Assembly (NCBI GenBank): GCA_900549225.1
Contig: URNP01000004.1
Location: forward strand, 3,931-67,930
From: an uncultured Eubacteriales bacterium
GTDB taxonomy: Bacteria; Bacillota; Clostridia; Christensenellales; CAG-917
Reading direction: 5' to 3'
DNA: 64,000 nt
The notes under the pieces are model-generated. The model was given only the letters and a program-made list of their open reading frames with translations. It was not told where the DNA came from and made no database searches. Every line of letters starts with the position of its first letter. Position 1 is the stretch's first letter. A program made the position numbers and the translations under genes. Below are positions 22,949 to 50,095 of the stretch, one piece after another.

Positions 22949-25900
22949 TCAAATTTCAATCATTCCCGTCACTGCTTGGTATTGCGGGATGGTTTTGCCC
23001 TTTGCAACTATAACGTCGCTACCGTTCTTCCAATCGGCATCTGCCGTCGTTGTGGTAAGCACCGTGCCGTTGTTGTCAACAACCGTGCCGATTGCCGCGT
23101 AGAGTTTGTAAACGATCTTGCGGTCGGACGACGTCGGGAGCGTGAGAGTTCCGCTCGTTGACGAGAACATAACGTCATAACTTGCTTCAAGAGTCGGATT
23201 GGTCTTACTTGCAGTGTAAACATACGCTTTGCCGAACCAGACAACGTTGACCTTCACACTACCGACGGAGTAAGTCGTCTGGAGCGTCGTTCCGTTACGG
23301 AGCGAACTTGCTTCGGGCGCAGTCGGCTTAACATTGTCGTTGATTTGTGTGATTCCGACGGTGATACGCTCTTGGTCTGCAAGTTGGACAATTGCGTTTC
23401 TGCCGCTTGCAGTGGTGGTGATACCGCTTGCCGATACGGTGTATTGCTCGTCCGCAGGCATTGAAACGATTGCATAGTAGAATTCAAGCGTTTCGTTTGC
23501 AGCCGCTTCGTATCCGCTTATCACATATTCTCCGTCTGCATTGCGCTCGTATTTGGGCGTTGAAACGCTAAACGTTGCAATGTAGGTGAACGGCATCGTC
23601 AATCTCTTCGGATTGTTCGGATCGAGACTGAATGCGGTTTTCGCTGTGCTGTTTTCAACCGTCGTGGAGTATCCGTTCGATACCTTCGTAAGAATCGTGT
23701 TGCCGCTCGAATCTTTGCCTGTGGTTGCCTCTTCGAGATTGTTGGCAATCATTTTCTTGACGAGGAACGGAATCTTGTACTCTTGCACGTTGCCGTCGAC
23801 GCCGATGAGTTTTGCAGTGACGTAAATCACGCCGCCCGTGTACTTGGGTCTGAACTCGTCGAAACTCCAGACAAGCAAGTGGCTTGCATTTCTCGTCGTG
23901 TATACAACGTCTGCGGTTTCAGCCTTGCCGTCTACAATCTTGCCGGTACGCTCTTTGAACGTGAGCGAATCGGGCATGGTCGGCTTGATATACTCGTAGG
24001 GATTGATATAGGTCTTGTCGGTTGCAAGAGCGTAACCCGTGAGTTTTTGAAGTTCACTGTCGCTGACAATGCTTTCTACGCTTCTGTCAAGAACTTTGAC
24101 GGTGAATCTGATGCGTTGCGTGCCGATTTCGTTGACTGCAGACTTGTCGTTTGCCTTGTAGTTGTACTCGCCGCCGTAGTTGACTATCGCATAGGCATAG
24201 TACTCGCCGCCTGCATAGGTCACGTTGACACCGCTGAAGTCCCAAACCACAGGCACGTCGACAGACTTGCCGTTTGCGAGCGCGACGTTGAGTCTGGTCG
24301 GGAAGTTGACGTAATCTCTGTTGAGTTCGGCCACAGTAAGTTCGACGTATTCACCGTTTACGAGTTTGTACGTTCCGTCGAGATTGTTCTTGACGTAACC
24401 GCTCGTCGCAACGGAGGATTTCTCGTAGCGATCGCCGCTATAGCCCGTCTTTCTTGCAAAGACATTGCCGCTAGCATACGGATCGATCTCGAAGACTCCG
24501 TTCTTGTAAAGCGCATACGTATCGCCTTTAACGAGTTGTGCTTCGCCTGTCAATCTGCTGTTTGCGATATGCACCGTTACGTCAACGGTCGTACCCGTGG
24601 CGTTGCCTTGCGCTCTGCTTGCTAGCGTTGCTTCGACCGCTACGTTGCCGCCTCTGTAGGTGTATTCCGCTTTCTCTGCATTCCACGTGACGTCGAACGT
24701 TTGCGTGGTGACGTACGTGAACAAGTAGAGATCTTGTCCGTCCGCAGTCTTGAACGTCTTTGGGTCGATCGTATTCACGTCGCCGGCGAACTTGACGTAG
24801 TTCTTGGTATCTGCGTTGTAAACGTAGAACTTTACGTGTGCGTAATCGGATTCGGTGGCAAATCCGCCGTACACCGAATAGATGCCGGGATATACTCCGT
24901 CCGTATCGGTGAAGCCGTGGCGTTTGAGATACGTGCTCGTGTAGTCGTATCCGCTGCCGTTGGCGATTTTGCCTTCGTTCCACCATGCATATGCGCTGAC
25001 GAATTGTGCTCCGACGTAATAGGTTGCTTCGGATGCATACTTAGCCGTATTGAAGACGGAAGTGTCACTATCACGATCCACGTAAACGTCTTTGTTGTTC
25101 TTGTAAGTGCCGACGGACATTTCTTTGTATGCAAGGTCGCTGTTGGTGAGCGTAACCTTGGATACGCAGATTCTGATGGTCATTTCGAATGCGTCCATAA
25201 CCTCTCGCCTGTCTTCACCCTCGCCTCTTTCATTCCAGACGTGAACGGTCATCGTTCTTTCGAGCGTTGCGCTGAGGTCTTTGAGGTCGCTTGCCTCGGG
25301 CGCGTTCTCGTACGTGATGTAATAGTTGCCGACGTCACCGTTTGCGAACTTGAGCGTCATCGTATCGGGCAATCTGTCTGCGCCGACGTATGCGAAGTGG
25401 TTGTAATAGACGTATTGCTCGGGCATACCCGTCGTCTTGTTGTAGACGATATCGATGTATCTGCCGTCGCCACTCTCGCCAACGAGCGTATCCGTTATCG
25501 TCGAATACTTGCTCGAATCGGAGTAGAGATACTTAAGGCCCGTGTCGTCGAGTTTGAGTTCAGCATCGACGATGGTGCGCTCAAGCACGGTGACGGGAAC
25601 GTTGACGCGTTGTTTTGCAAGCATATAACGAGTTGTGCCTTCAGGCAACTCGAAGTTTGCATCGGTCTTTCTCTTGAACTCGAGATAATCTTCGAGCGCA
25701 ACATACTCTTCACCGTTGCCGATATCCGCAAGAACATGCGTGCCGTTTGCATGCGAGACGGGTACGACTGCGGTTGCCATATATGCGGTGTTGCTCGTGC
25801 CGTTCTTGATGAGTTTGTCAACGTCGGACCAGTCGAAGTGTGCGTCGAATACGTCGCCGCCCACGGTTGTGATTGACATAACTTTTGCAAGATAAGAAGC

Positions 25901-28900
25901 GTCTTTGTGCAAGAACGTGTCGACGACGATCGAACGGTTCTCGTAATCGGACATGTACATTATGCTTCTGTTGAGAACGGTCACTTTGATTTCGCCAGTT
26001 TCGACGTTTTCATTCTTGCCTGCGTTGTATCTATATCTCACGCCGACGGTGTACTTCTTGCCGAAGTATTGCGAGATATTTGCATAGAAGTCTTCGCCGC
26101 CAAAGTCGTATTCAACGGTGACGAGTTGATCTTGCACGGTCTTGTCGGCACTTGCGCTCTTGACTTTGACGCGTTGAGTGCTTCCTGACGGGAAGAGTGT
26201 GCTGTTGACTCCGTACGGATCAAGCGTGTAATCCTTGCCGCCTACAAGTCCTTCTATGCCTGCGCTTGCGACTTTGACTTTGATCGTAACGTCGCTTGTG
26301 AGTGCGTCGGAGGAGATCGTAAGCGTCATATTGCCGTCAAATCCCGCTGCCGTATAATCGTCGCTCCATGCGAGAGTAACGGGTATCTTCTTGTCGGTCA
26401 CGTTGAGCGTGGTCGACTTGATCAAGCCGCCGTAGAAGTGATCTGCATCGATATCGACGCTGAAGCCGTTCTTGCTGTCGCCGGTGATGCTGTCAAGCGT
26501 GAATTCGTTGTTGATCGTAAACGTGAAGTCCTTCACAACGGTTTCACCGTTTGCCGATTGTCCCGTGACGTACGCTTTGCGTGTGAACGATCCGTTCTTG
26601 ATTTCTTCCGCAGTCGGCATGCTCGTGTCGAGCCAGTGGAGCGGCACGTTGTAATGCGTGGTTTCACCGATCTCGACGGTTGCTGTGGTTGCAAATGTGA
26701 ATTTGTCGAATGCGTCGTATGCCTTGAGCGTTCCGTCCGCATTGCACATTCCGTCGGGTTTCACATCAACGGCTGCGTTGAATCCCGTGACGTAAATTCT
26801 TGCAGTGAATGCGTCTGCGCTCGGATAACGTATTGAGAGCCCGTCGAAGAAGAAATACTTGCGTTCAACGTAATCTCTGCCGTTCAACTCGTCCTTGTTC
26901 GGTGCGGAATAGTCAATCCACTTGACTTCGACTTCGGTTTCGCCCTTGCCTTCGCCCGTGGTGACTTTTGCCGTGCTCGGCAACTTCCACTCGTCAAAGA
27001 CGTTATAGGAGAGTTGAATCGTTTCTTCTCCCACACCTGCAATCTTGCCACCGGTAACGTTGAGTTTGCTCTCGCCGTCGTTGAAGGTGCCGCTTGTAAA
27101 CGTATAGTCGGGCATGTTGATTCTGAACGAAACTTTTTGTCCGCCGATGGTCAAATATGCCGTCTTTTCGACGCCTTCGATGCCCACAGAGGACACTATG
27201 CCGTCAAACGATTGTACGTATGCGATATACGGCTCGCCCTTGTCGAGCGTTACGAGCACAGGCGTGCCGCCGAGTGCGTCGCCCCATTTGCTCGTCTTGA
27301 AGTAATCACTCGGATTCTTTGCGAAATTGATCGGATCGATGCCGTATGCGACTTCGTCGATTGCGTGCGTTTGTTGATATACCGTGCCTTCGTAATTACT
27401 TACATTAGCAAGTGCTTCTTTGAGGATGTCGAGTTTCGCTTGGTCATCCGCATTCGCTCTCACGTACGCCGCAACGTCGCCTATAGCCTCGTTGTAGAAG
27501 AAGTTGACCGACTTGACGGTTTGCTTCTCGACGCTGAGTTTGAGCGTTATCGTTTGTGCGGTGTAGATTGCATTGCCGTCCTCGTCCACTTTGCCGCTGT
27601 TGACAAGCGCGAGTTTCGTACCGTCTTTCGTGCCATCAAGCGTCGTGTAGGCTTCGACTTGTGCGTAAATCGTGCCGCCGTCAAAGATATTCTGCTCTGC
27701 TTTGAGTTTCGTGCAAGCCGCGTTGGTGTAGTACTTCACCGTGCTCCAGTCGGGGAACATAGTATGCGTCGCCGTGCCGAAGGATACCGAGAACGATTGA
27801 TATCTCTCATTCTCGTACCAGGTCGGGTTGAGCGTGTCTTCGTGTTCTACGTTGAGCGCAAGCGTCGTGGGCTTGAGTGCGTTTACTTCAATCGGGACGT
27901 AAATTTCTTGCGTGCCGCTGTAATCCGTGCCGATTGTGAGTTTTGCATAGAGCGGATACGTTCTTTGATTGGTGTATCCCTCGTATGTGATCTCGTCGGA
28001 CGTGAGGTTGTGTACGCCGTTGTCGTATGCGTCGTAGTAGGTTTCGCCCGCTTTGATGAACGGCGCTTCCACTCTGAGTCCGTTGCCGACGGTCAAAGTC
28101 TTTTCAACCTTGTTGCCGCTTGCGTCTTTGACGTTGAGCACAAAGTTGTTGCCAAGAGATGCCACGGTGATCTTGTCGTACGAATACTGGTCGAAGGTGA
28201 TTGCCTTTGACATAGAATCGTAAACGAACGGATTGACGACGATTCTCACGTTGACTTCTTGCGCAAGGCCACCCGTGTAAGTCGTTTTCTGTCCCACAAA
28301 TCCCGAGGTCTCGTCGCCGATGGTCTTCTTGGTGACCGTGGTGGAGATGCTGAATCTGTTTCCGCCGACTTTTGCTTTGACGGTCACGTCAACGCCCTTG
28401 TAATAGTCGTATCCGACGATATCGCCGTTGTCGTTTTTGCGAGCAATTGCATCAAGTGCCTTTTCAAGTTCTGTCAAATCCCACTCGACGTCGTAGCCGT
28501 TCATGTTCTTGCCCGCGACGTTCTTGCTGTTGATAAACTTGAATTGCTTGATATACTCGGCAAGTTTCCACGTGTTTGCATTGATTAACATTGCGTCAAG
28601 GTTGAGAACGGTGGAGTAATTGCCGTTGTTATCACGCGCATTGGTGAATTTCTCTGCAGAAGCCGTATCCGCCTCGCCGGTTGCGTCCGCCTTCATCATT
28701 TGCGTGAGATGTGAGATCTTGTAGTTCTTTGCGCTGAGTTCAATCGAGCCTTTGACAGCCTTGCCCAAGCCCCATTGATAGGTGAATCCGACCTTGACGG
28801 AGTTGCTTGCGGAATCCGTGTTCCAAGAAGTCGAACCTTGCCAATCGTAAGTGAATTCATCCGTGTTCCACTCAATCGTGCCTGCGGGGAATTGCTTGCC

Positions 28901-31900
28901 GGTGGGCAAATTGCTACGGCTGAGAACGTAATACTCAACCTCTTCACCGCTTGCGTTCTTGACTTTGATCGTCTTGTAAACGGTGTTGCCATTTGCGTCT
29001 TGTTCGGTCACAAGGCCTGCTACGTAAGCGGGCATCAAAACGTACTTATTGCCGTCCTTGTTGACGTTTGCCGCTGCGCCCTTGTCAATCTCTTCTTGCG
29101 TGGGTTGCACGAGGATTTGATATCCGTTTTCGGACGGTGCGCCGCTTATCGGATTGATAACCGCGTACGCCATATTTCCGAGGCTATCTTGCAGATATGT
29201 TCCAAACGTTGCCTTGCCTGTCGAGAATGAAATTTGAACAAGATCAGGCAACTCTGCCATAAACTTGCTGCTTTGAGTATCGATATCGATATTCAAATTC
29301 TTGGTGCCGTAAGTTCCGTCTCCGTTTCTATACAAGCCTTTGACGGATTGCACTTCCTTGTCGTTGGTGACGTAAACCGGAATTGCATAGAGCACCGTAT
29401 TGAGTGCGTAGCCGTAGACATAGCCCGCAAGACGTCTGCCGTCTTCGTCCGCCGTTTCGGAATTTGCCGCAGTCAAATCGACCGACGCGCCGTCCCAAAC
29501 GATATATGTACCGGTTGCATCTTGATATTGGCTTCCGGAGTTGTAAGACGTCATCTGTTTTCCGTCAATGATTATCGGGAATGTCACGGTTGCCTTTTGC
29601 GGGAAGAGCGTTTCATCGAGGAAGAAGCTATCTCTGAGCTCAAAGTCTTTTCTTGCACCGCCGGATATAGCGTAGCCTTTTCTTGTTGCAGGATCTTCAA
29701 TGACAATTTCCGTCGGAGGTTCAACGCCGATATTGCCTGCGGATTCGGATTCGTCAAAATACAGCAATCCCGTCTTATAATCGGCGTGATTTATGCTATA
29801 CGGCGTAATGCGAAGCATAAAGAAGTCCCATGCATCCTTGACGTTGCTAGTCTGCTTGGTCGGACGTGTTGCGAAGTTAAAGTCGCCGGTTCCGCTTCCG
29901 ACTTTTTCGTTGTACAACATTTCGGTGCCAATGCCGTTCTTCTTGCCGTTGACCATAATTTCGATAGCCTGAATGCCGGGAGCAACGGTTTCACCGCTAT
30001 TGCAACCATAATCAGATGCTGTCGGATTGATGTCAATGTAGATATTGATTGACGGATTGATCGTACCGCTTGCAAACGGAAGGGGAAGAATGCCGCCGAT
30101 AAGTTTGGTTAAATTCTCCAAAGTATCACCGGCAAGTCTTTGGATAGCACCCCAAATACCATCCATATTGATTGCCGGACCGACAATACATTCCATTGCC
30201 CATTTGAGCAATGCAAACGGTATACTTCTCATATAAGGTTCTACGTAGTCAACCTTTTCTTGTGTGGTTGCGTTCTTTGCCAGTAACGTGTCTAATCCGT
30301 CGAAGAAATCAGTGATCGGCTTTGTAGTAGTGCCATAAGGTTTATCCGATGGAGAAATGTCTGTCGCAGAACCGATATCTTTAACATTGACGAAATACAC
30401 ATTGCTTCCGCTGGATTTGCTATCGGCATTATTGTCTCCGTTGCGCATGAGATTCATAAGGATGCAGCTCACCATAATGATGAGTTCGTTATATGCATCT
30501 TTGTTGAGCTCAACCTTGAGAGAAATCTTTCCTGCACCGTTGGACGCTTTTTTTGCACCTGCAAAGTACGGCCAATATCCGTTGTTGTTGAAGAGATTTA
30601 CGTCAACGCTCTTGATGAGATTTTCAAGATTTGCCGGATATGAATACGATTCCTTCTTCACTGGATCGTTCCAACCACTGCTTGCTTGCGTTGAAGTATC
30701 AGCAGCAGTCTTTGCAGACGGATATTCATATGTTGCATCGTCGCCGTCAGTACCGCTTACGAGTTTAAGCGGGAATGCATCTGCCAGCAGTGTTCCAAGA
30801 TCAAGGCATTTCAAATATGCGCCGATTGCTGGGATGCCCGAAACCAAATCGACAGTATTACCGCCAACTTTTATGTCAGACAAGAATACGTTGTTGCCAC
30901 CGAAAATAACGTTCAATCCTACCGTATCTTTTACTGAAGCACGATTTAACCCAAGTCCAAGCAAAAGTTTGTAGCTCTTGGCAGAAGGATTGCTTGCGTC
31001 TTCAACCAAGTTCGTCGCAGTATAATCTTTCTTACCAGACAAAGTTATAGTTGAATGTTCATAACCCGAATAAATCCTTGGAACACCTACAAAACCTAAC
31101 GATACCCAGCCGGTATAAGCGCTCCAAACGGTATTTTGAATTTCGAGATTAAGACCAGGCTTGAGGTTGTCGATGACGTTTTGAACAAGGGACATCAAGC
31201 CGGACGTCTTGGAGAACGTCAAGCCTGCATAACCAGTCTTCACCGATTCAATGAGTTTTTCGCTGTCAACCTTGCTTTGGCCAAAGCCGAGAGCGAAGTT
31301 CTTGATCGCAACGTTTGCGCCCGTGCCTACGCTGTCGAGTTGTGCGTTGAGGTTGATGGATTCCAAACCGCCTGCGCCGAGGTTGACGTCAAGTTTGACG
31401 GACTTGATGGGCGGAAGCGTTATATCGCCGAGATCGAGGCCGAGCATATCGATAAGCGTTGAGATGAACGCATTGTCGAAAGACATACCGAGACGGCCGT
31501 TTTCGATGTCGATTTGCAAATAGAGAGCCGAACCGCTTGCCGCGGCTTTTGCCTCTGCACTTGCGTCTGCATCGGACGTGGACGCGTCTACGCTTGCGAC
31601 TGCGTCTGAAGCGGTGCTTGCGCCGTAACTAGGAGTTGCGCCGAGCAAACCTGCGATGCCTTGGAACTTGATCTTGCCAAGACCCAAACCGCTTGCATCG
31701 ATATAAAGTGCGTCGGAATAGATCTCATCCTTCGTATAGGAGTCGTAACTACCCGTGGTGAGTTCCCAACCCGAACCACTCGTCTTCTTCATAAGTCTTG
31801 AAGAGCCGAGGTAGTATACGCTGAGGATCGTGGAGTTGATCGGGTCGCCTGCCTTGATATCGACTGCGATGTCGCTGAACAGGATACCGCCGATGCCGTA

Positions 31901-46900: not shown

Positions 46901-49900
46901 ATACTCGCCGTTGTCGGCCGCTTCAACCAAATAATACTTGCCGCTCAACGCATAGTTGGCGGGTGCGGCTTGCGTGTTCTTTGCGACGTATTGTTTCGTT
47001 GCAACATCATACCAATGCGTGCCGTTTTCTTCGGTGGCTTCGGTATAAGTGTTGTCTGACTCATTAAACGTGTAGAATTTGCCGCTCAATGCATAGTTGG
47101 CAGGTGCACTTTGTGCGCTCTTTGCTATATACTTGCCCGTTGCGACGTCAAACCAGTGCGTACCGTTTGCCGCAGTGGAGAACGTGTAGAATTTGCCTGA
47201 TTTCAGATAGAATTCATCGGTATTTCTGCTCGTATCGGCAAAGGAAACGTACTCGCCGTTCAAGTCGAGCCAATAGGTTTGGTCATAACTGAGACCGAGG
47301 ATGTTGAGAACTTTGTCGAAAAGTCCCGCTGCAAGCACGACCTCGAAAGCGTGGTTGCCGAGCTTGAAGCCGTCGATTATGCCTGCCACGAAGCCGAGAA
47401 TCGAATTGACGTTAAGGCCGTCCTTGGGAGTCGTTTCGTCTGCAACTGCCGCTTCTTGAGCGTCGTTTTGAGAACCGTCGCCGTCAAGTCCGAGCATACC
47501 GATCAGTTCTTTGACGTCGATTTTGATTTCTTTGACGTTGATGCAGAGCAAATCTGCCTTCAAATATGCCCAACCGTCTTGCAAGTAGATTGCCAAAAGC
47601 GGATTGTTGCCTTCGACGTCCGATCTTCTTGTGATTGCAATCTTCGCAGAAGATTTGAGGAGTATGTCGAGAATCGCGCTCGTGTCAAGACCGCCCGTAA
47701 GGTCGAGGTCTGCGTTGACGTCGAGTTTAAGTCCGCCCTCGATATTGTCAAGTTCGAGCAATACGTTGACGAGAACGCCCTTGAACAAGTTGCCGAGTTC
47801 CTGATCGGGAAGATCGATGGAAATTTCAGCAAGTTTGCCTTTGAGCGTGTCGATATCGATCGAAAGTCCCGTCGAGAGATTGACGTGGAGCAAATCCGTG
47901 TTGAGTGCGCCGTTCTTGAGAATGGGCAGATATGCGCCGGGATTGTCCGCAAGGTCTTGTTCAAGGTCGGTGAAATTCTTTTCAAATTGACCTTGATTGG
48001 TGATTTTACCGAAGGTAACGTCGATGCTGAGTCCAAGTCCGATCAACGGATCGAGCGTGAAGTCGGTGTGCGTTTCGTTGTATTCGCGGATACCGAGCGT
48101 TGCGTCCAACTTGATTGATTTCTCTTGTTGTGCGCCCTTGTTCGTATAGGTGAGACTTGCTTCGGAAATGGGGATATCTGCGCCGATATTATTGCCTGTG
48201 AACACCATTCCGAATATCGTTTCGAGCAAATCTCTAGTGAGATCGAATTGGATACCGTTGATATTGAATATGTTTTCGTCCATATCAACATTGATATGGT
48301 CGAGTATCGTGCTTACGAGTGCCAACACGTCAACGCTTCCGTCGCCGTCGGCAGATTCAAACGCACCGTGTTGAACGATAAGTTCGCCGTTGTCGACGAG
48401 CGCTTGTTGGATAGCTTGCGCTTTCATGCCGTCGGCAAAGTAATCGCGCGCCGCTTGAGAAGTCGCGTCGCCCTTGAGTCCGTCGATAGCGCCCTTGATC
48501 TTGTCGAAAAGTTGACCGATGAGATCGTCGAGCAATTGATTGACGTTGATATCGTCAATCTTGAACTTCGTTCCGTTAGAGCCGAGCAAACCGCTTGCGT
48601 CGATATAAATGCCGTTCAGACTGCCCTTGTAAAGCGCACTGAGGCGTTCTCTGTTGTCTCTGCCGAGAACTCTGACCGCAAGTTTGGTATCTTCGGGGTT
48701 TCTTGTGTTGATTTCACCTTGGAGAGTGATTGTGAGTTGAACCGTTCCGCTTGCAAAGTCGATTTCTTTTGCAAACAACGGCTGAAGCGCCGCAAGCAAT
48801 TCGGCGTCGAGATTTTGTTTGAGGAGATTTGAAATGAGAGTGCCGAAAGAATCCACCACGTTGTCGATGGACACTTTCTTTTGTGCAAAGTCGAGTGAGA
48901 GAGTTATTGCGCCGTCAAGCGTAAGGAAAGAGTATTGTTGCGCAGTTTCAATTGCTTCGAGCAAAGTCTTGCCGTCGGATCCGGTACGATTTGCAAGAAT
49001 ATCCTTGACGTCGAGATCGGGAGTGCCTGCGAATTCGGCTTTCGCATAGCCCAAATCGATACCGAATTCGGATTGGAACGTGCCGTACTTTTCTTGGATG
49101 TCGGGAATTCCGCTCGAATTGAGGTTTACGTCAATGCTGAAATTGGTTTCTTTGAGCGATCCGTTGTAAATGTCTGCTTCCAGATAAAGCGCAACGCCCG
49201 CCAAAGCACCGATTTTGCCCAGATCGAGTCCGAGCACGTCTTTGACGAGTCCGATAATGTTTTCGGGGATAAGACCTTGAACGAACGGAATGAGCGTCAC
49301 GATAAGTCCGAGATCGCAAGGTATACGCAAAACCTGACGGCCGTTGCCGTAGTCCACGAGCGTGCTCTTGCTTGATCCGAACAGTATGTTGACGAGCAAT
49401 TCTTCAACCGTCAAATGGGCTATGTCGATTTTGATCAGACTGTTGACGAGTCCGCCGATATCGTAACCCATAATGGTGTCGTAAAGGATTGAGGAAAGAT
49501 CGAGTTGTTCGAGAGCGTCGGAAAATCTAGCCACGAAAGTGCTCATGTTGATGGTGTCCGTGTATACGACGTGGACGCCGTCGCCTTTCTTGATTCCGCG
49601 CATATCGGCAACGAGTTTGCCGTTATAGTAGTATGCACCGAAGAGCATCGTGCCTTTTCCGTCTTTCGCCATATCCGTGATGGTCTGACGATCGAGAGTA
49701 CGACCTGCGATTTGGTCTTTTCCCAACTTCCAGAACTCAACGAGGATTTGACTGTTGTCGTCGTTCACTCTGTCAATCTTGCCTGCAAAGCGAGCAACGA
49801 TAAGCGATTCGTAGGAATCCTTGGCAAATCCGAGCACGAAAGCCGTGTCGACGTTTATGTACTGCTTGTCCTTTTCGGCACCCGCTTCCAAAAGCGCTGC

Positions 49901-50095
49901 GTCTTTGAACAACTTCCATGCATCTTGCGGACCTATGTACTCCGAGTTGCTCGGTTCGTCGTCATCTGGCGTCGGCGTAGGAATAACCGGGTTGTCGACG
50001 TTTCCGCCACCTGCATGGTCGCACGCTACCATGCCGAAAATCATCGTGATAATCAGCACGAGCAACAATACGAGCGATAACTTTCTCATTCTCAT
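22949..50095 (-). CDS. giant (~9,048-aa, ~1 MDa) lipobox-anchored modular surface protein of unknown family
   Basis: There is no stop codon in 9,079 codons. The ATG at 50095 (Met32 of the track ORF) is preceded by GGAGGAG and a consensus promoter. Signal peptide MRMRKLSLVLLLVLIITMIFGMVAC is followed by a Pro/Thr/Asp spacer. The body has ~14 diverged modules and the C-terminus an Ig-like array. No LPXTG or other known anchor is present at the C-terminus. Confidence 0.97.
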   Translation of the reverse strand: MRMRKLSLVLLLVLIITMIFGMVACDHAGGGNVDNPVIPTPTPDDDEPSNSEYIGPQDAWKLFKDAALLEAGAEKDKQYINVDTAFVLGFAKDSYESLIVARFAGKIDRVNDDNSQILVEFWKLGKDQIAGRTLDRQTITDMAKDGKGTMLFGAYYYNGKLVADMRGIKKGDGVHVVYTDTINMSTFVARFSDALEQLDLSSILYDTIMGYDIGGLVNSLIKIDIAHLTVEELLVNILFGSSKSTLVDYGNGRQVLRIPCDLGLIVTLIPFVQGLIPENIIGLVKDVLGLDLGKIGALAGVALYLEADIYNGSLKETNFSIDVNLNSSGIPDIQEKYGTFQSEFGIDLGYAKAEFAGTPDLDVKDILANRTGSDGKTLLEAIETAQQYSFLTLDGAITLSLDFAQKKVSIDNVVDSFGTLISNLLKQNLDAELLAALQPLFAKEIDFASGTVQLTITLQGEINTRNPEDTKLAVRVLGRDNRERLSALYKGSLNGIYIDASGLLGSNGTKFKIDDINVNQLLDDLIGQLFDKIKGAIDGLKGDATSQAARDYFADGMKAQAIQQALVDNGELIVQHGAFESADGDGSVDVLALVSTILDHINVDMDENIFNINGIQFDLTRDLLETIFGMVFTGNNIGADIPISEASLTYTNKGAQQEKSIKLDATLGIREYNETHTDFTLDPLIGLGLSIDVTFGKITNQGQFEKNFTDLEQDLADNPGAYLPILKNGALNTDLLHVNLSTGLSIDIDTLKGKLAEISIDLPDQELGNLFKGVLVNVLLELDNIEGGLKLDVNADLDLTGGLDTSAILDILLKSSAKIAITRRSDVEGNNPLLAIYLQDGWAYLKADLLCINVKEIKIDVKELIGMLGLDGDGSQNDAQEAAVADETTPKDGLNVNSILGFVAGIIDGFKLGNHAFEVVLAAGLFDKVLNILGLSYDQTYWLDLNGEYVSFADTSRNTDEFYLKSGKFYTFSTAANGTHWFDVATGKYIAKSAQSAPANYALSGKFYTFNESDNTYTEATEENGTHWYDVATKQYVAKNTQAAPANYALSGKYYLVEAADNGEYWFDIATNQYVAKSTQAASENYEKSGKYYSYDSSSGEYNAAANGEYWFNIATGKYVKTATLTPYKAFGGKEYYHNDFYNDYREVQNNVKIGFASTDFDGGIRIALNDGLYLPDFQLGIFLSLGNNVSLDLSLNGLSAGLNDKTTDYLENDKLQKDSFTEILEYPFVGLDLTLGIEFTADQGSRELVFGEGKYWLNENGEYIEIEKTPVPSTYTGVLYYKDSNGNFKEENITKATLAFDSEMDINYELRVAGQLDLSPILKYLLFKETQINTKNNHSELLVELTGKKFGQDRKVLLGIYYTSGVLYLDASNFGLGKIQTEIDLYEVILSLLVKDTTVSVNGTATAEALIASATGVDDTDARRALALDIIATLSSDNVKLQIAKGLTDIVYQIIGIDASDITAWAQIAWANVKDKFDNKPVRVGVDINTDEGQKLAGAEIYIGTTVKSADGATLNPLELTIGGSAIEPIKIVRDGEAAQTMAQYITSEDEDVYESIPLFNDYGDITIPSIYAEIKGTFSVGAHQGNTSWTVGEWIASFLDESNPQLNSFIRQLLLTYSVPVEAGAEIGFRIALNANLNPDVPVDLTQNAVFKKYANSELANLARFVEVYKLDGTKYTLLTDEERDLTSDKKYAGDVYLKQYVTGGIALNEVTDLAYRGEGYVLVDDAYVKVNITDENANQFANDRVFTKASLLDIAYIASHSDIAIEIYNRSIVDIDAMTNQDKIEHVILALRLQSTGENAQGNAVSTVYLDLSNDFHVALSNIDLGALLGGLIGGGNSSEAGATTMADEESGGIDIMGILGSVLGGIIGYIGVGSDGLQINFAEGLIVTLVQMLAGKQVDPEKFIKLNSDRSYLALAWKNDYNIRLNAEISPVYIGLEISEINLALGKEGGVLPEDFDSTIYTTVENLDTLSLNLDLGLDLKIKGQKEQIRIENYLDLFIKDLGIELGLDMYDDIEYDVRISLGANLALNEPNDTNIVLEISLNDNDTVIKNIIAVYIEGQNVYFDLGDLGREPFYLEKTNISEVVCDAIVKLLGDIKSQINNSEASTASDESTLSAEEQMQVVLNIADGKLSALVMQNVLVGLIAALTSKGESDLKVDENLEKLDLDIQVGVDLQLDPSISLDINVDSKLIALGVNIGNIDVATGKNEDGAYGTIKNKARKGIDKFVELTETEKDTYKGDRYRLDATGKYVKADDGAYRSYYKGLQEAHIIALDLSLIVDYYASATYVLVTDKKALESFSPQDRYSLNYDGRFVQDDNGSYIRDGFAFDELLNLVLGMDGLQSILNTMLPQIRINTDNEEFKAEIIKDKFSVGDLLKRLGLNLMLSDKMDDGFKLDVKARLNLQAMGMEDITKIDFGNLDVNTILKGLEASIGIDFDYEHEQSNAYLNIYLLNGDVYVDLAGIGGPRVQVGLFELLGRLGVDLASSSDASTADDTTTGDTQDKGLDVAQLLNTIVSKLVLSAAPWKADSNINKIESLGVFLRANFINDLLSMLFKQEVNSENAVIDEAQSGIFLYPQTAELFKGYLDNALALQLKLALANKKDPIKDEDGNTRPFTFDLKLGVDAKVGLESVNDYQTLLDNDERLEFISLDDYIANILALIGGFRGENYQRETELVDNGIYYAFNESEGGEYLLKTGMYRKPNFNVDANGAFVFDEATGEYRLIGEGEVLEEGTKRYSKEDLTGVTMYARSYATVQTSAEDGKQYAYYVNYVQSEDDDAVYVYDAQNDIYVNRNDANAPQSTVFYKRVLEAMTVTETDADGNVTTRNALAKEAKLYKKCGQETYQDQNISLSVSGLIYFNSASAEVVNAGGLLPNAFRDMIINLQTLSAFNAGIGLRISANIDLAALDLQGLASGGSFGDFIGNSDLSKVELAIQFVEVDSEGYFAKYDTAKGTKDGNDKVLGGMYLSGGTFYLDLTGVVGTAENYSKIENFVDFAKKVIDKFGSKGGDKENNGAQTASDEQDLRSATRDAVVLLAYSDAQFQIQITKALIAFVLATFMPDLGSLEEVFDVFNVSLGVDIGQPVYKSLADLQNSDNLDDQDLYKKFTTDDEYKQHRYKYYGTEDLSQVVKTDAYYVAGGKYYQAATTDVCEVTVDGESGTVKPTEGALKTRYADGKLPEGKTFGVYLNGTYTVITKVVEGKYIHSNANYYAKVAGIDGPISLRSYRMYRKDANGTESVTDTYIAGDTYVRYNGEERDIEELRSRLFGYVKDVNGDWYRTVNLYSSISDFYLGLDVAIGCVNMGLKLGGIELGVGAGNNLLPAYIRDGKAHSRIVDGKDIEYTDELTEADKEAYDDIPTNMFYDTIITVGFSVELELGITEGTLDFGKILSKIVGDLTGVVVEMPSTTKGYSSAHFRLDVSLMVDIYDLTKSELKIELINVTETGYESLWLGAYYVNNTIYLNLEEAFNIQKVAIGGLNIAEILKDYIIDFDDEELFVAGNRAKDASTDEASVAADANGSDISLSDKELAFSMLINKDLLTLKLGDKLFDTILEYIPEELLGFDIKDLFYQEINGGLQVELDTSDSINLSVDVALGLDGDRYNKDSDYTESTEATLAEKVKNGTSKYYVFRKSETGTGNYVKESAGSNFVRAIKPDDSSEIKAADNRYDKYIVNCDESTNRLYLLKVVDNGKGDGSEVYDTTKLSMLEGEAVYKHVAGAVANKSYVSDGGKYDTTLKLSLAIKNLDVAFTNSRTYVLSGDELAEYTNMDDVDRFTLSETIDITAQFKSGKDNEIDLSAVLQAFFPSLTDDQLLVIKAQSDKGGDIDRSLQLVVDADIQVAALLNFMRTELVKYAGDDDQFDGDMDLFTVIDLLKKVIENIDKTQLVNLIADIASYVNLSVRLQTKGGNDSDYHDMLGIYMVGGTFTLLDESKGELDENNENYVDPSERYDHYFETKNGSYSLESGKYNYIRSSEYSGTRYSYDSSYCYKNEKGRYKRENGGLFVDLSYFNIPSLRVDANEIRKLVSGLFKPNSTDAMATADDTTGDDTPDDGEKEKISFPLVKDDKILGYIRTFAYGLQITSRYIKVLAKADYINSILSLVMGENAIQFDDSKFVNQPNVTLYTDNTRYSYTSAQDIVDEFKREYGKATTESAKKELVKNLEKTLTKSKYLYDVTGYTGEGAQNKGIYYKAADGAFVQKSEMAETERKAYDEQVQNGRASYYDVKKVNVYIKLAEGVYVLYADATQTQLNKCEKVADLQNDYLVRVPKLYYYASEKAEEPVAVNFRYSVVQPLQARNEFLSVNLYLWNHKLSVAINAPKINVTKFQYVTGEEAKNKLSFENIADGARYINTEEVIYTSVDKVTDGIGNWKFDYYENDEFSTTKYKDGPRFYEYKDKYIEINPDTLFVKDGDGKYQKAAADWTSMPDFIGEMEKDSAKEYYVDATSAYVRIQRVFIYKKEVYNTEKKVLLSADDKVEDSDYFIKVQQNSSVEKPDFSKTEYADYAYKEYVDSDNLYYISLALRGSLFLQAGKIYLPYKDYAEVYKSIRKVEPTFEFIKNKGIAYKKFQGDYVKVTEKDDLAKLNENNGLFVLVNGELDEKYSGVNEALGDVLGSILGAMKGKFQIAEDMTFNIYFSLRLNLGFKLYILPSFGIDIRDLDVAIDVWGEQNDLMADGNYVTSEDRDANKYDGKLLDGTKPHILGIYYDNDQDTGKAGLYVDAEALLGKDAKLFVDMSEYSLEDVLTGLVANIGSNNAADAAVASDSVTDKNPDKQDPDAASLFINIFTNAIALNVTSGFAKVLLNELIADSASITSMLPNLKVYLKQNLNPYDITIGAILFNERGDIPVLNLGLNIQGLNGVAGESSSIEFGRKEDILNMQQGSNAIFYYANFYRDNGNTDYSNYYGKNYNAKDYVKLFKDKVGNEYYYKGVTYEELSDSEKDTYEGTIYKKKDNKYEELADSEKDTYEGKLYKKASGYTLVKSDDGYTATAKVGGEYAIYASKDGTVAGPEDRYMKAAPVMSEVLTSRQTAYKGDLYTDVDGIYMLVYERLNDIAGNNHLGEKYREYRELVSNNQFRSFTGTLYTVDNNGNFVRVNKDELQGFTGDGNLQYVLASDYPSENANEKGAGKEVVYNGQKYYRIDPNGNGYTDMDEADAFKAAHANVKVYKQVTDFTNYTKALALNLGDLLGGGAFDVASVLAELNTVELGLNFDIRTTLDDVINWTYQFTKFIDDKTICEYLYFIATSLKNNAEFQSLIGLNLDLKAYLQTANLVKMISGDTSVGILQVLEGAKIYLELTYETNFHGEQKPKALLWVEIKDGKLYLNIDASQIGDIVGWGDFFSYGVVKGLDLSSILGTSATSASAQAFTAADDEEANTGLIPANVWSILNVVLGRLLIANDFITVGLNETLIADLIGMLAGSDSEILQGIGEFLPKLRTTDTKDTSGITINFYGNSPSIDINLGFKVGMLYYETVANFNAMYGASGKYFNGSNWSGKTFVKDANGEYTQGTGADDDNTYVLVSTDDYALVAYAYPAWSGDTYDYENGEFVKHTATGTKGAYLKQGDFAIAISLGKIYARVNKDFSVDKDEKFADITYVESENGAYVKDGENYRLATADDKGTRYEKQVSYDKYVGLKNAKAHLELSIDISLYGSAPKEGSANEIDLSEILDLVMGLINPNSAVSGSTLKLNIVNELGNNTGAYLTLDLVANIDVEKFKVDLGIELNKHSKGATADRTLLGIYLVDNAIYVDLSGILGNTAKVAVTDINLDGLLEGVLGKFLNESNGAESMQAQTANSGDIDTIKDTMKDYAYFMINVTPQKLLLQLNSDLINAIYRKIMAIRGLDSTKDLLPDIGDILFRMDATGGKTEFSLNIRLSDGLYFCLDIPAASITKDISQSILSRFEVNPSSYIKILSLDLEALVNGTGTFNISDLNLPTIGLTLTLDLTMTSKNLKPGQDGYRESLAGWVQDLLANLLGGQAIFGKFSELTFVDANTLKDSDGKVHDGKVYVKNSEGAYEVFTGTSYDSSTTYYKYTLADVNITMASEAINLTIDIAANINIAPILAYGIGGILFSDIAVDIKAGDPINSTILSVYYLGSSRLMKKTSGSGWELTTGSYDSYTKDEIYSDALYIDASGLGLGKIKFQGIAGLLGATPSYGASTASDAVASVDASTSDADASAEAKAAASGSALYLQIDIENGRLGMSFDNAFISTLIDMLGLDLGDITLPPIKSVKLDVNLGAGGLESINLNAQLDSVGTGANVAIKNFALGFGQSKVDSEKLIESVKTGYAGLTFSKTSGLMSLVQNVIDNLKPGLNLEIQNTVWSAYTGWVSLGFVGVPRIYSGYEHSTITLSGKKDYTATNLVEDASNPSAKSYKLLLGLGLNRASVKDTVGLNVIFGGNNVFLSDIKVGGNTVDLVSGIPAIGAYLKCLDLGTLLADAFPLKLVSGTDGDDATYEYPSAKTAADTSTQASSGWNDPVKKESYSYPANLENLIKSVDVNLFNNNGYWPYFAGAKKASNGAGKISLKVELNKDAYNELIIMVSCILMNLMRNGDNNADSKSSGSNVYFVNVKDIGSATDISPSDKPYGTTTKPITDFFDGLDTLLAKNATTQEKVDYVEPYMRSIPFALLKWAMECIVGPAINMDGIWGAIQRLAGDTLENLTKLIGGILPLPFASGTINPSINIYIDINPTASDYGCNSGETVAPGIQAIEIMVNGKKNGIGTEMLYNEKVGSGTGDFNFATRPTKQTSNVKDAWDFFMLRITPYSINHADYKTGLLYFDESESAGNIGVEPPTEIVIEDPATRKGYAISGGARKDFELRDSFFLDETLFPQKATVTFPIIIDGKQMTSYNSGSQYQDATGTYIVWDGASVDLTAANSETADEDGRRLAGYVYGYALNTVLYAIPVYVTNDKEVQSVKGLYRNGDGTYGTKNLNIDIDTQSSKFMAELPDLVQISFSTGKATFGTYLQDSLGNMAYAVINPISGAPSENGYQILVQPTQEEIDKGAAANVNKDGNKYVLMPAYVAGLVTEQDANGNTVYKTIKVKNASGEEVEYYVLSRSNLPTGKQFPAGTIEWNTDEFTYDWQGSTSWNTDSASNSVKVGFTYQWGLGKAVKGSIELSAKNYKISHLTQMMKADATGEADTASAEKFTNARDNNGNYSTVLNLDAMLINANTWKLAEYIKQFKFINSKNVAGKNMNGYDVEWDLTELEKALDAIARKNDNGDIVGYDYYKGVDVTVKAKVGGNRFSISTTVTKKTIGDETSGFVGQKTTYTGGLAQEVNVRIVVNPFVYDSMSKAITFDQYSYDKITVASLGNNFVLNVKDASGNKVEKTLTVGNGLRVEAPFIKAGETYYDAYDNGVHNLTSDEITYEGYTNQRTYPLYAKLTIGTDYSGTQEIYVPIEVNALKPTTLALNVEHEDTLNPTWYENERYQSFSVSFGTATHTMFPDWSTVKYYTNAACTKLKAEQNIFDGGTIYAQVEAYTTLDGTKDGTKLALVNSGKVDEDGNAIYTAQTITLKLSVEKQTVKSVNFFYNEAIGDVAAYVRANADDQAKLDILKEALANVSNYEGTVYQQTHAIDEVAYGIDPINFAKNPSDYFKTSKWGDALGGTPVLVTLDKGEPYIAYVQSFDGIVSSVGIEGVEKTAYLTIGGQKVSFRINMPDYTFTSGTFNDGESKLNVTGGKIAGVGEETIQLSYNVFDEWKLPSTAKVTTGEGKGETEVEVKWIDYSAPNKDELNGRDYVERKYFFFDGLSIRYPSADAFTARIYVTGFNAAVDVKPDGMCNADGTLKAYDAFDKFTFATTATVEIGETTHYNVPLHWLDTSMPTAEEIKNGSFTRKAYVTGQSANGETVVKDFTFTINNEFTLDSITGDSKNGFSVDIDADHFYGGLIKSTTLNVTDKKIPVTLAWSDDYTAAGFDGNMTLTISSDALTSDVTIKVKVASAGIEGLVGGKDYTLDPYGVNSTLFPSGSTQRVKVKSASADKTVQDQLVTVEYDFGGEDFYANISQYFGKKYTVGVRYRYNAGKNENVETGEIKVTVLNRSIMYMSDYENRSIVVDTFLHKDASYLAKVMSITTVGGDVFDAHFDWSDVDKLIKNGTSNTAYMATAVVPVSHANGTHVLADIGNGEEYVALEDYLEFKRKTDANFELPEGTTRYMLAKQRVNVPVTVLERTIVDAELKLDDTGLKYLYSDSSKYSTITDTLVGESGDGRYIDIVYNKTTGMPEQYVYYNHFAYVGADRLPDTMTLKFANGDVGNYYITYENAPEASDLKDLSATLERTMTVHVWNERGEGEDRREVMDAFEMTIRICVSKVTLTNSDLAYKEMSVGTYKNNKDVYVDRDSDTSVFNTAKYASEATYYVGAQFVSAYAWWNEGKIANGSGYDYTSTYLKRHGFTDTDGVYPGIYSVYGGFATESDYAHVKFYVYNADTKNYVKFAGDVNTIDPKTFKTADGQDLYLFTYVTTQTFDVTWNAEKAEYTYRGGNVAVEATLASRAQGNATGTTVDVTVHIANSRLTGEAQLVKGDTYALYKNGVFEIDPYASGNVFARKTGYSGDRYEKSSVATSGYVKNNLDGTYKLVNGEYVELTVAELNRDYVNFPTRLNVALANGKSVDVPVVWDFSGVNVTYAGGEYYAYAIVNYGGEYNYKANDKSAVNEIGTQRIRFTVKVLDRSVESIVSDSELQKLTGYALATDKTYINPYEYIKPTMPDSLTFKERTGKIVDGKAETADVVYTTRNASHLLVWSFDEFRPKYTGGVIYVTAKLIGVDGNVQEYKIPFLVKKMIANNLEEATTGKDSSGNTILTKVSNGYSTTVENSTAKTAFSLDPNNPKRLTMPFTYIATFSVSTPKYERNADGEYVISGYEAAANETLEFYYAIVSMPADEQYTVSASGITTTASGRNAIVQLADQERITVGITQINDNVKPTAPEASSLRNGTTLQTTYSVGSVKVNVVWFGKAYVYTASKTNPTLEASYDVMFSSTSGTLTLPTSSDRKIVYKLYAAIGTVVDNNGTVLTTTTADADWKNGSDVIVAKGKTIPQYQAVTGMIEI
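46703..47200 (-). repeat. four tandem 38-47-aa Tyr/Trp-rich repeats inside the giant gene (aa 997-1162)
   Basis: SGKFYTF..NGTHWFDVATGKYIAKSAQSAPANYAL repeats four times with variation. The repeat is also visible at the DNA level. Confidence 0.85.

What the first reader, a model, noticed from the sequence alone, without database searches (positions are those of the whole stretch)
22949..50095. Single uninterrupted 27.1-kb gene encoding a ~9,050-aa (~1 MDa) lipid-anchored surface protein with no recognisable family
Seen in sequence: 9,079 sense codons occur without a stop, which cannot happen by chance. A perfect TTGACA-17-TATAAT promoter, a GGAGGAG RBS and an ATG at 50095 lie upstream. The signal peptide ends in a lipobox (IFGMVAC) followed by a Pro/Thr/Asp spacer, and a strong terminator sits 28 nt after the stop. 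The protein is acidic and rich in D/N/G/T/Y/L, with only about 19 Cys by my count. It ends ..QYQAVTGMIEI with no LPXTG, SLH, LysM or C-terminal TM anchor. Reading the first ~6,800 aa I found no P-loop, NRPS/PKS motifs, RTX GGxGxD nonapeptides, canonical YD/RHS repeats, or cadherin/FG-GAP signatures. Established context: this is in the size class of the largest Gram-positive surface proteins (S. aureus Ebh is ~1.1 MDa), but it shows none of Ebh's FIVAR/GA-type helical repeats. Inference: it is an N-terminally lipid-anchored, wall-spanning fibre, adhesin or envelope scaffold built from a previously undescribed module. The flanking genes are housekeeping, so it is chromosomal rather than phage- or plasmid-borne.
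Basis: partly seen in the sequence, partly recalled or inferred. Interest (0 to 1): 0.92.

Follow-up and report, generated by a model that had tools for sequence, protein, structure and literature searches.

The report
Conserved one-megadalton lipoprotein of gut Clostridia
The 27-kb gene is real: it encodes a ~990-kDa membrane-lipid-anchored surface protein, found in at least 46 uncultured gut Clostridia species and built largely from a ~190-residue module that matches no described family or solved structure; its function is still unknown.

Summary
Window 22949-50095 (-) is one stop-free gene of 9,048 codons. It has a 12/12 consensus promoter, a GGAGGAG ribosome-binding site, a lipoprotein signal peptide (Cys25) and a 13-bp terminator hairpin.

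It is not an assembly artefact. Collinear orthologues occur in 46 species-representative genomes of uncultured Christensenellales-like gut Clostridia. At least 38 of them are open over every base retrieved (>=5,000 aa). dN/dS is ~0.2 along the whole length. Full-length relatives of 7,300-7,900 aa also start with a lipobox.

Pfam, NCBIfam, PDB sequence and profile searches, and Foldseek (PDB, BFVD) recognise nothing except one borderline Big_4 Ig-like domain near the C-terminus.

Residues 430-6260 contain at least 12 divergent copies of a ~190-aa alpha/beta module. Its signature is LLGIYxxxGxxYVDLSGLLG plus a loop motif [ED]-A-x-[TV]-A-[AS]-D. An exhaustive profile search of 1.84 billion protein representatives found it in only 147 clusters; the long, complete-looking ones I inspected are giant Clostridia lipoproteins.

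My best reading, which is inferred and not shown, is a membrane-tethered extracellular fibre or coat with a distal region that probably holds several Ig-like domains. This is a new variant of the giant-surface-protein kind.

The parts
50160..50188 (-). Sigma-70-type promoter, TTGACA-17 nt-TATAAT
   Evidence: 12 of 12 consensus matches; sequence read.
50099..50105 (-). Ribosome-binding site GGAGGAG, 3 nt upstream of the ATG
   Evidence: Sequence read.
22949..50095 (-). Coding sequence of the giant lipoprotein: 9,048 codons plus TGA
   Evidence: Orthologues are collinear. dN/dS is about 0.2.
50021..50095 (-). Lipoprotein signal peptide, aa 1-25, with lipobox G-M-V-A-C and the lipidated Cys at position 25
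   Evidence: Nearly all full-length relatives start with ...L-V-A-C or ...L-x-A-C (consensus).
48356..48811 (-). Module copy 1 (aa 429-580)
   Evidence: Iterated profile search within the protein, 95 bits.
47174..47755 (-). Module copy 2 (aa 781-974)
   Evidence: 132 bits.
46646..47278 (-). Four to five tandem repeats of about 45 aa (SGKFYTF...NGTHWFDVATGKYVAK), aa ~940-1150. The block is specific to this lineage.
   Evidence: Self-BLAST and phmmer, 40% identity. Relatives skip giant aa ~935-1155.
45632..46195 (-). Module copy 3 (aa 1301-1488)
   Evidence: 157 bits.
44294..44881 (-). Module copy 4 (aa 1739-1934)
   Evidence: 113 bits.
43469..44056 (-). Module copy 5 (aa 2014-2209)
   Evidence: 113 bits.
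42350..42931 (-). Module copy 6 (aa 2389-2582)
   Evidence: 115 bits.
40847..41428 (-). Module copy 7 (aa 2890-3083)
   Evidence: 133 bits.
39305..39865 (-). Module copy 8 (aa 3411-3597)
   Evidence: 135 bits.
37700..38623 (-). Possible degenerate module copy (aa 3825-4132). A further candidate lies near aa 4442 (YYVDA).
   Evidence: Weak hit of 7 bits. Loop-motif match AMATADD at aa 4039 and Y-x-D motif at aa 4442.
35534..36205 (-). Module copy 9 (aa 4631-4854)
   Evidence: 126 bits.
33710..34342 (-). Module copy 10 (aa 5252-5462)
   Evidence: 122 bits.
32435..33010 (-). Module copy 11 (aa 5696-5887). This is the copy that was modelled.
   Evidence: 165 bits. AF2 model: pLDDT 73.6. No structural match.
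31325..31972 (-). Module copy 12 (aa 6042-6257)
   Evidence: 127 bits. Covered by the first AF2 model.
29996..30499 (-). Family-conserved core (aa ~6533-6700): a predicted helical bundle followed by the invariant ILP-x-PFA...P...IY-x-D stretch
   Evidence: AF2 secondary structure. Invariant columns in 14- and 24-sequence alignments.
22952..29995 (-). C-terminal ~2,350 aa. The modelled part (to aa ~7100) is predicted beta-rich, and there are weak internal repeats. Probably holds several divergent Ig-like domains.
   Evidence: Model 1 strands after aa ~6700. Internal profile hits among aa 7200-8870. Big_4 hits in orthologues.
24179..24346 (-). Big_4 (PF07532) Ig-like domain, aa 8584-8639
   Evidence: 23.2 bits against a gathering score of 22.1 when the 948-aa piece is scanned, and present in 13 of 24 orthologues. 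Only 19.7 bits when the 4,548-aa piece is scanned.
22892..22921 (-). Intrinsic terminator: 13-bp stem with 7 G-C pairs, then a T-run
20469..22674 (-). Conserved downstream neighbours: an SPFH/Band_7_1 protein with Zn ribbons (21559-22674) and a Zn-ribbon protein (20469-21539). No functional link to the giant gene is shown.
   Evidence: Pfam. Both lie directly downstream of the giant gene in 31 fetched loci.

Best explanation
Shown:
- This is a genuine, single-copy chromosomal gene of an uncultured, Christensenellales-like gut Clostridium.
- Its product is exported with a lipoprotein signal peptide that carries a lipobox Cys at position 25.
- The mature 990-kDa, acidic (pI 4.5) chain has three parts. 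First come about 6,300 aa holding at least 12 (probably 14-15) divergent copies of a family-specific ~190-aa alpha/beta module, separated by beta-rich inserts and Tyr/Gly/Lys hairpin-like repeats. Next is a short helical core that is conserved across the family. Last are about 2,350 aa that are beta-rich where modelled and include at least one Big_4 Ig-like domain.

Inferred:
- The protein is probably diacylglycerol-modified on Cys25 and so tethered to the outer face of the cytoplasmic membrane.
- The module array probably forms a long fibre or coat element that crosses the wall and projects from the cell.
- The distal C-terminal region probably acts as the ligand-binding or contact end, for glycan, host or partner-cell surfaces.
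- It is collinear, non-expanding and under uniform purifying selection across the clade. That pattern fits a core envelope or attachment structure of the lineage better than an antigenically variable adhesin.
For: Gene is real:
- It has the ORF, promoter, RBS and terminator.
- Orthologues occur in 46 species representatives. In 38 of them the frame is open over every retrieved base, at least 5,000 aa.
- Orthologues are collinear, with 35-68% identity to the window protein per 100-aa block from aa 2600 to 9048.
- dN/dS is 0.20-0.22, and 0.16-0.29 in each 800-codon block.
- Full-length 7,300-7,900-aa relatives align end to end. One cluster was recovered nine times at an identical 7,879 aa on contigs up to 221 kb.

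Lipid anchor:
- The lipobox is present here and in nearly all complete relatives, including the distant 2,000-3,700-aa ones.
- No other TM segment and no LPXTG exist.

Module:
- Across 370 copies, Y64 is 93% conserved, D66 is 78% and A108 is 80%.
- AF2 model: pLDDT 73.6, with a beta-meander plus helices.

C-terminal region:
- Big_4 reaches threshold in the window protein and is found in 13 of 24 orthologues and in 4 of 16 distant relatives.

Context: surveys place surface attachment and recognition proteins as the second largest class of bacterial huge proteins (PMC11573180).
Against: - No experiment or expression data exist.
- Extension, wall crossing and binding are inferences from topology and domain type alone.
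- I could not inspect the three-dimensional arrangement of the modules. The 1,200-aa model has pLDDT 58.
- Only one Ig-like domain reaches a curated threshold, and only in one scan context.
- Most adhesins vary fast, whereas this protein is conserved and non-repetitive. That points more towards a scaffold than an adhesin.
- The envelope type of these uncultured organisms is unknown.
Confidence: 0.55

Rival explanations
1. Hydrophobic-cargo conduit. The modules stack into a continuous curved beta-sheet groove, like AsmA/TamB or eukaryotic bridge-like lipid-transfer proteins, and ferry lipids or lipoproteins from the membrane outward.
For: The modules are amphipathic beta-strands followed by a disordered loop. 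The best, though insignificant, Foldseek hits are lipid or lipoprotein carriers and helix-wrapping sheets: LolA with probability 0.82 and TMt 0.33, LprG, hot-dog dehydratases and an S. aureus DUF576 lipoprotein.
Against: No AsmA, TamB or DUF490 Pfam or NCBIfam hit appears even at E 0.1. No TamB, VPS13, ATG2 or Lpt structure is among the listed Foldseek matches, and all TM-scores are <=0.35. The protein is very acidic, has no second membrane anchor and ends in an Ig-like region. Nothing indicates an outer membrane in this Clostridia lineage.
Confidence: 0.08
2. Precursor polyprotein or cross-linked array. The loop motif [ED]-A-x-[TV]-A-[AS]-D, conserved in every module, is a processing, modification or cross-linking site. 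The mature form would then be many ~450-aa units or a covalently stabilised chain.
For: The motif lies in a predicted disordered loop, yet it is among the best-conserved positions across 370 module copies that are otherwise about 20% identical.
Against: No protease, sortase or transglutaminase partner is evident in the conserved neighbourhood. The motif matches no processing site known to me. Loop conservation could equally reflect packing against a neighbouring module that AF2 did not capture.
Confidence: 0.08
3. Contact-dependent toxin or effector-delivery protein, with the long stalk presenting a C-terminal toxic domain.
For: It is giant, exported and filament-like, as polymorphic toxin systems are.
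Against: The C-terminal 900 aa are collinear and conserved across species (25-67% identity to the window protein), whereas such toxin ends are polymorphic. No toxin, Rhs, pre-toxin or immunity-gene signature is present. The downstream genes are conserved SPFH and Zn-ribbon proteins.
Confidence: 0.03
4. Artefact: a chimeric assembly, or a pseudogene read through by chance.
For: A few relatives are broken. The long-read MAG CP091723.1 shows three frame changes, and L004 and L005 show one each, at different positions.
Against: An open run of 9,048 codons cannot arise by chance. Independent assemblies of about 40 species keep the frame open. dN/dS is ~0.2 throughout. GC content matches the flanks, 49.4% against 48.1%. 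A near-identical (99.6%) N-terminal fragment occurs in an independent Logan assembly. The scattered breaks look like indel errors or lineage-specific decay.
Confidence: 0.02

Closest known systems
Giant Gram-positive surface proteins such as S. aureus Ebh (~1.1 MDa) and related megadalton adhesins
   Same: It falls in the same size class. It is exported, acidic and modular, is presumed to project from the envelope, and carries Ig-like domains.
   Different: Ebh is built from FIVAR/GA helical repeats and is not a lipoprotein. This protein is N-terminally lipid-anchored, has no FIVAR, GA or LPXTG feature, and is built from a module found only in its own family. It is collinear among species and shows no repeat expansion.
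Bacterial Ig-like domain group 4 (Big_4, PF07532) surface proteins
   Same: One C-terminal domain (aa 8584-8639) reaches the Pfam gathering score. The same family hits 13 of 24 orthologues and 4 of 16 distant relatives.
   Different: Big_4 accounts for about 56 of 9,048 residues. The other 99% of the protein has no Pfam match.
AsmA/TamB-like and repeating-beta-groove lipid-transfer proteins
   Same: These are very long proteins made of repeated beta-strand units, each followed by a loop, and anchored at one membrane.
   Different: No sequence match and no structural match. This protein also has a different end architecture and is highly acidic.
Giant genes of Omnitrophota and gut Clostridia described by West-Roberts et al. 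(bioRxiv 10.1101/2023.11.21.568195)
   Same: Both are giant predicted proteins from metagenomes, including mammalian-gut Clostridia, with a proposed surface or attachment role.
   Different: The Clostridia proteins described there are 10,000-30,000+ aa arrays of known repeats: RCC1, Listeria-Bacteroides repeat, YG repeats and dockerin. The Omnitrophota ones carry many TM segments and SecA-like domains. This family has none of these features and is not mentioned there.
LolA/LprG-type and S. aureus DUF576 (Csa1B) lipoprotein folds
   Same: These were the top Foldseek hits. They are antiparallel sheets packed on helices, and several are themselves lipoproteins.
   Different: E-values are >=0.01 and TM-scores 0.17-0.35, so this counts as no match.

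Membership tests
Bacterial lipoproteins (Lgt/Lsp substrates) | N-terminal signal peptide with positively charged n-region and hydrophobic h-region, ending in a lipobox [LVI][ASTVI][GAS]-C | tested here: met
   MRMRK-LSLVLLLVLIITMIFG-MVA-C25. The same architecture occurs in nearly all complete relatives.
Bacterial lipoproteins (Lgt/Lsp substrates) | Actual diacylglyceryl modification and signal peptidase II cleavage | not testable with these tools
   This needs biochemistry, for example globomycin sensitivity or mass spectrometry.
Big_4 (PF07532) Ig-like domain | Score at or above Pfam's gathering threshold (22.1 bits) | tested here: inconclusive
   23.2 bits when a 948-aa piece is scanned, but 19.7 bits when a 4,548-aa piece is scanned. 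Thirteen of 24 orthologues match at E<=0.01.
AsmA/TamB-like (AsmA, AsmA_2, DUF490/TamB) lipid-transfer proteins | Match to the family profile HMMs | tested here: not met
   No Pfam or NCBIfam hit at E<=0.1 over the whole protein.
AsmA/TamB-like (AsmA, AsmA_2, DUF490/TamB) lipid-transfer proteins | Beta-taco or groove fold resembling solved TamB, VPS13 or ATG2 fragments | tested here: not met
   Foldseek of both models against the PDB lists none of these. The best TM-scores are <=0.35, to unrelated folds. Caveat: model confidence is only moderate.
Sortase-anchored (LPXTG) Gram-positive adhesins | C-terminal LPXTG motif followed by a hydrophobic segment and a charged tail | tested here: not met
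   No LPXTG is present. The C-terminus is ...GMIEI with no hydrophobic tail.
Ebh-type FIVAR/GA giant proteins | FIVAR or GA module repeats | tested here: not met
   No Pfam hit.
S-layer or wall-binding proteins (SLH, LysM, CW_binding_1) | At least one such wall-binding domain | tested here: not met
   No Pfam hit at E<=0.1. The ~45-aa Tyr/Gly/Trp repeats at aa 940-1150 only loosely recall choline/glucan-binding repeats and do not score.
RTX, Rhs/YD, cadherin and FG-GAP repeat proteins; NRPS/PKS | Match to the family profiles | tested here: not met
   No Pfam or NCBIfam hit.
The new family itself (giant Clostridia lipoproteins carrying the ~190-aa module) | Lipobox N-terminus, multiple copies of the module (signature ...LLGIY-x3-G-x2-Y-[LIV]-D-[LA]-SGL... 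and the loop [ED]-A-x-[TV]-A-[AS]-D), and a C-terminal region with Ig-like (Big_4) hits | tested here: met

The most novel reading that the evidence does not exclude
The ~190-aa unit is a new protein fold. Twelve to fifteen copies of it build a megadalton, sequence-unique, lipid-tethered envelope organelle that defines a whole clade of uncultured gut Clostridia. At least one member of that clade has a genome of only 1.65 Mb. The organelle might be a cell-to-cell or cell-to-host tether or a spacing 'ruler'. In this reading the invariant [ED]-A-x-[TV]-A-[AS]-D loops are sites of a so far undescribed modification, cross-link or inter-module lock.
Probability: 0.2. Interest if true: 0.85.

Novelty: new variant of a known kind. 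Interest (0 to 1): 0.62.

Why it matters
Giant bacterial proteins are mostly NRPS/PKS enzymes or arrays of known adhesin repeats (PMC11573180). This one is different. About 99% of a 1-MDa chain has no family or structural match, yet it is kept collinear and under purifying selection in dozens of mammalian-gut species. It takes up about 1.6% of a 1.65-Mb genome.

That points to an important envelope or attachment structure in a common but uncultured gut lineage. It also gives Pfam, InterPro and structural biologists a defined new module to characterise. Finally, it is a useful marker for this clade, and it is a gene that short-read assemblies and gene callers tend to fragment.

Tried and rejected
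- Pfam and NCBIfam scans on two halves of the protein gave nothing except Big_4 and one spurious InvF hit.
- PDB sequence searches with both halves, with the module profile and with three orthologue profiles covering aa 6250-9048 all returned zero hits.
- Foldseek of a 1,200-aa model (pLDDT 58) against the PDB gave only TbpB, LolA, LprG and hot-dog hits at TM <=0.35. I rejected these as matches.
- Foldseek of the module model (pLDDT 73.6) against PDB and BFVD gave a best E of 0.007-0.012 and TM of about 0.2. I rejected these too.
- Homologue searches with the whole protein and with 5,000 aa failed on length or time limits.
- The profile query in the word-indexed database returned only fragments.
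- The first genome scan with a 14-sequence alignment had no conserved stretch to search with. It worked with 7 sequences.
- An attempt to define a single Ig-like repeat profile mixed two unrelated things, Tyr/Lys hairpin repeats and Ig-like domains, so I abandoned it.
- The module profile does not hit the neighbouring 1,219-aa and 656-aa orphan ORFs.
- Literature searches found no description of this family.
- I considered the 1,331-aa antisense ORF and rejected it as a gene.
Full report
**1. The observation**

The ORF list shows a single stop-free stretch at 22949..50188 on the minus strand, 9,079 codons counted from the first possible start. The ATG at 50095 is preceded by GGAGGAG at a 3-nt spacing. 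A perfect TTGACA-17-TATAAT promoter lies at 50188-50160, with 12/12 matches.

Translation from that ATG gives 9,048 residues and a TGA stop. A 13-bp G+C-rich hairpin with a T-run begins 28 nt after the stop.

The N-terminus MRMRKLSLVLLLVLIITMIFGMVAC|DHAGGG is a textbook lipoprotein signal peptide. The C-terminus is ...QYQAVTGMIEI. The mature chain is 990 kDa with pI 4.5. It has no further hydrophobic segment of transmembrane strength and no LPXTG.

**2. Is the gene real?**

A search with the C-terminal 2,848 aa found 13 relatives of 2,271-4,749 aa at 27-64% identity. They come from Clostridia or Christensenellales MAGs and are unnamed except for one called 'Ig-like domain-containing protein'.

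A scan of one genome per GTDB species found 46 loci, all in uncultured gut Clostridia. The sources include human UMGS and Hadza MAGs, mouse MGBC and rabbit. One locus is 94% identical over its best segment, and another lies on a 1.65-Mb record titled 'chromosome'.

In 38 of these loci the frame is open over every base retrieved. That is typically the full 10-kb upstream flank plus the match plus the 3' end, about 6,450 aa. A local alignment of these 38 with the window protein is collinear from aa 2600 to 9048. Occupancy is 0.8-0.99, and identity per 100-aa block is 35-68% with no decayed region.

dN/dS is 0.20 against the 90%-identical orthologue, 0.16-0.29 in every 800-codon block, and 0.21-0.22 against two 72%-identical ones.

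Full-length relatives of 7,300-7,900 aa align with the window protein from the lipobox to the C-terminus at 24-32% identity. One such cluster was recovered nine times at exactly 7,879 aa on contigs up to 221 kb.

A few relatives are broken by one to three frame changes at different positions, including the long-read MAG. These look like indel errors or local decay and do not bear on the window.

The neighbours are housekeeping genes. The two genes just downstream, an SPFH/Band_7_1 protein with Zn ribbons and a Zn-ribbon protein, follow the giant gene in 31 fetched loci. So the gene is chromosomal, old and maintained.

**3. What is it made of?**

Pfam and NCBIfam recognise nothing in the first 4,600 aa. 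In the rest they find only a sub-threshold Big_4 hit. Scanned as a 948-aa piece, that Big_4 domain (aa 8584-8639) reaches 23.2 bits against a threshold of 22.1, and 13 of 24 orthologues have it.

PDB sequence searches with the protein, and profile searches with orthologue alignments of aa 6250-9048, return nothing.

Self-comparison showed only weak repeats. Profiles built from the 39-species alignment revealed a recurring unit. Three rounds of iteration within the protein defined at least 12 copies of a ~190-aa module, each scoring 95-165 bits. They lie at aa 429-580, 781-974, 1301-1488, 1739-1934, 2014-2209, 2389-2582, 2890-3083, 3411-3597, 4631-4854, 5252-5462, 5696-5887 and 6042-6257. Two or three degenerate candidates also exist.

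The copies are 15-25% identical to one another. Across 370 copies from the window protein and 52 relatives (38 orthologues and 14 full-length representatives), the best-conserved positions are:
- two Tyr and an Asp in ...LLGIY-x3-G-x2-Y-[LIV]-D-[LA]-SGL..., where Y64 is 93% conserved and D66 is 78%;
- an Ala (80%) inside a loop motif [ED]-A-x-[TV]-A-[AS]-D.

An AlphaFold2 model of one copy, built from a 32-sequence alignment of paralogues and orthologues, has pLDDT 73.6. In order, it shows a six-strand meander, a helix, a low-confidence loop that carries the motif, a helix, a hairpin, a helix, three strands and a final helix. Foldseek finds no match in the PDB (best E 0.012, TM <=0.21) or in BFVD.

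A 1,200-aa model of aa 5900-7099 has pLDDT 58 and pTM 0.54. It shows the same strand/helix alternation, a helical bundle around aa 6533-6670 and beta-rich domains after aa 6700. Its PDB hits (TbpB, LolA, LprG, hot-dog folds) have TM <=0.35 and are not matches.

Between the modules lie beta-rich inserts and short Tyr/Gly/Lys hairpin-like repeats. One block of four to five ~45-aa repeats (aa 940-1150) is absent from relatives.

**4. How widespread is the module?**

I ran an exhaustive HMMER search with the 12-copy profile against 1.84 billion cluster representatives. It found only 147 proteins at E<=1e-3, of which 26 are at <=1e-30. Many of these are 5,000-7,900 aa long with 12-16 matched stretches. 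A more distant set is 2,000-3,700 aa with 3-8 stretches.

Nearly all entries with a complete N-terminus carry a lipobox. Sixteen distant members have no Pfam domain other than Big_4 (4 of 16) and Flg_new (1 of 16). Where sources give a name, it is 'hypothetical' or a generic domain label, and the organisms are Clostridia or Bacillota MAGs.

So the module defines a small, unannotated family of giant lipoproteins that, wherever a source names the organism, come from Clostridia or Bacillota MAGs. The window protein is the longest member I saw.

**5. How it most likely works**

Shown:
- export signal with lipobox;
- the three-part architecture of module array, conserved helical core and a C-terminal region with a Big_4 Ig-like domain;
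- consensus promoter, RBS and terminator hairpin flanking the gene;
- clade-wide conservation.

Inferred: Cys25 is lipidated and tethers the chain to the outer face of the membrane. The module array forms an extended fibre or coat element. The C-terminal region is the distal contact end.

The lack of repeat expansion and the uniform purifying selection argue for a core structural or attachment element of the lineage, not a variable adhesin. I put about 0.55 on this reading.

Rivals:
- a lipid or lipoprotein conduit of the AsmA/TamB kind, which is only weakly suggested and failed both membership tests;
- a polyprotein or cross-linked chain that uses the conserved loop motif;
- a toxin-delivery stalk, for which the conserved C-terminus and the absence of an immunity gene are evidence against;
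- an artefact, which is excluded for practical purposes.

**6. Comparison and novelty**

The protein is in the size class of Ebh but shares none of Ebh's repeats or anchoring. It is not among the giant Clostridia or Omnitrophota proteins described by West-Roberts et al., which are arrays of known repeats or are multi-TM. Surveys of huge proteins list surface proteins as a major bacterial class. I found no paper on this family.

I therefore call it a new variant of a known kind: a giant bacterial surface protein, but lipid-anchored, non-repetitive at the sequence level and built from an undescribed module.

The main uncertainty is function. Model quality limits the claim that the fold is new. 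I could not run an HHpred-grade profile-profile search, and no AlphaFold DB library was on hand.

Noticed in passing
window 38234-42229 (+): A 1,331-aa ATG-started ORF lies antisense inside the giant gene, along with many other long antisense ORFs. It is in exact codon register with the sense frame. Only 57 of the 9,048 sense codons are TTA, CTA or TCA, which are the codons that read as stops on the mirror strand, and the longest gap between them (aa 2623-3987) covers this ORF. It is a codon-usage artefact, not a gene.
   Followed up: yes
every module copy, e.g. window 32435-33010 (-), loop around aa 5785-5800: The loop motif [ED]-A-x-[TV]-A-[AS]-D is predicted to be disordered. Even so, it is among the most conserved positions across 370 module copies that are otherwise about 20% identical. 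Its role (modification, cleavage, cross-link or inter-module contact) is unexplained.
   Followed up: partly
window 20469-22674 (-): An SPFH/Band_7_1 protein with C-terminal double Zn ribbons and a separate Zn-ribbon protein sit directly downstream of the giant gene in 31 fetched loci. The SPFH protein is 90-97% identical in the closest relatives listed. I could not tell whether this reflects a functional link or only stable synteny.
   Followed up: partly
window 46646-47278 (-), aa ~940-1150: There are four to five tandem ~45-aa repeats (SGKFYTF...NGTHWFDVATGKYVAK, ~40% identical). Even the 64%-identical relative P0002 lacks them, so this is a recent lineage-specific insertion. It loosely recalls Tyr/Trp/Gly wall- or glucan-binding repeats but scores with no Pfam family.
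   Followed up: partly
window 56863-60522 (-) and 52675-54645 (-): Two further sizeable ORFs have no Pfam match. One is a 1,219-aa protein with an N-terminal signal-peptide-like segment (MKKTNVNGYLKLGLIIVLSFMLLASILS...). The other is a 656-aa protein. Neither contains the giant protein's module.
   Followed up: partly
window 60536-61120 (-): A small 194-aa ORF with a lipoprotein-type N-terminus (MTKKKISTILLTIVLTISAIALSAC|NQ). I did not investigate it further.
   Followed up: no
window 50600-51655 (+): An Acyl_transf_3/HGSNAT-type membrane acyltransferase is transcribed divergently from the giant gene's promoter region. The same gene lies upstream of the 64%-identical relative in L002. It could in principle modify an envelope polymer or the giant protein itself.
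   Followed up: no
L014 (CP091723.1), L004, L005: The orthologue in the 1.65-Mb long-read MAG has three frame changes over 19 kb. Two other MAGs have a single frameshift each, at different positions, so their gene calls split the protein into 5,555 + 3,148 aa and 4,548+ + 3,958 aa. These are probably indel errors, but pseudogenisation in some lineages is not excluded.
   Followed up: partly
window 22952-23010 (-), last ~20 aa: A motif G-[QK]-T-I-P-x-x-Q about 10-15 residues from the C-terminus is conserved across orthologues (for example GKTIPQYQ here and GQTIPVAQ or GQTIPEYQ elsewhere). It matches no sorting signal known to me.
   Followed up: no
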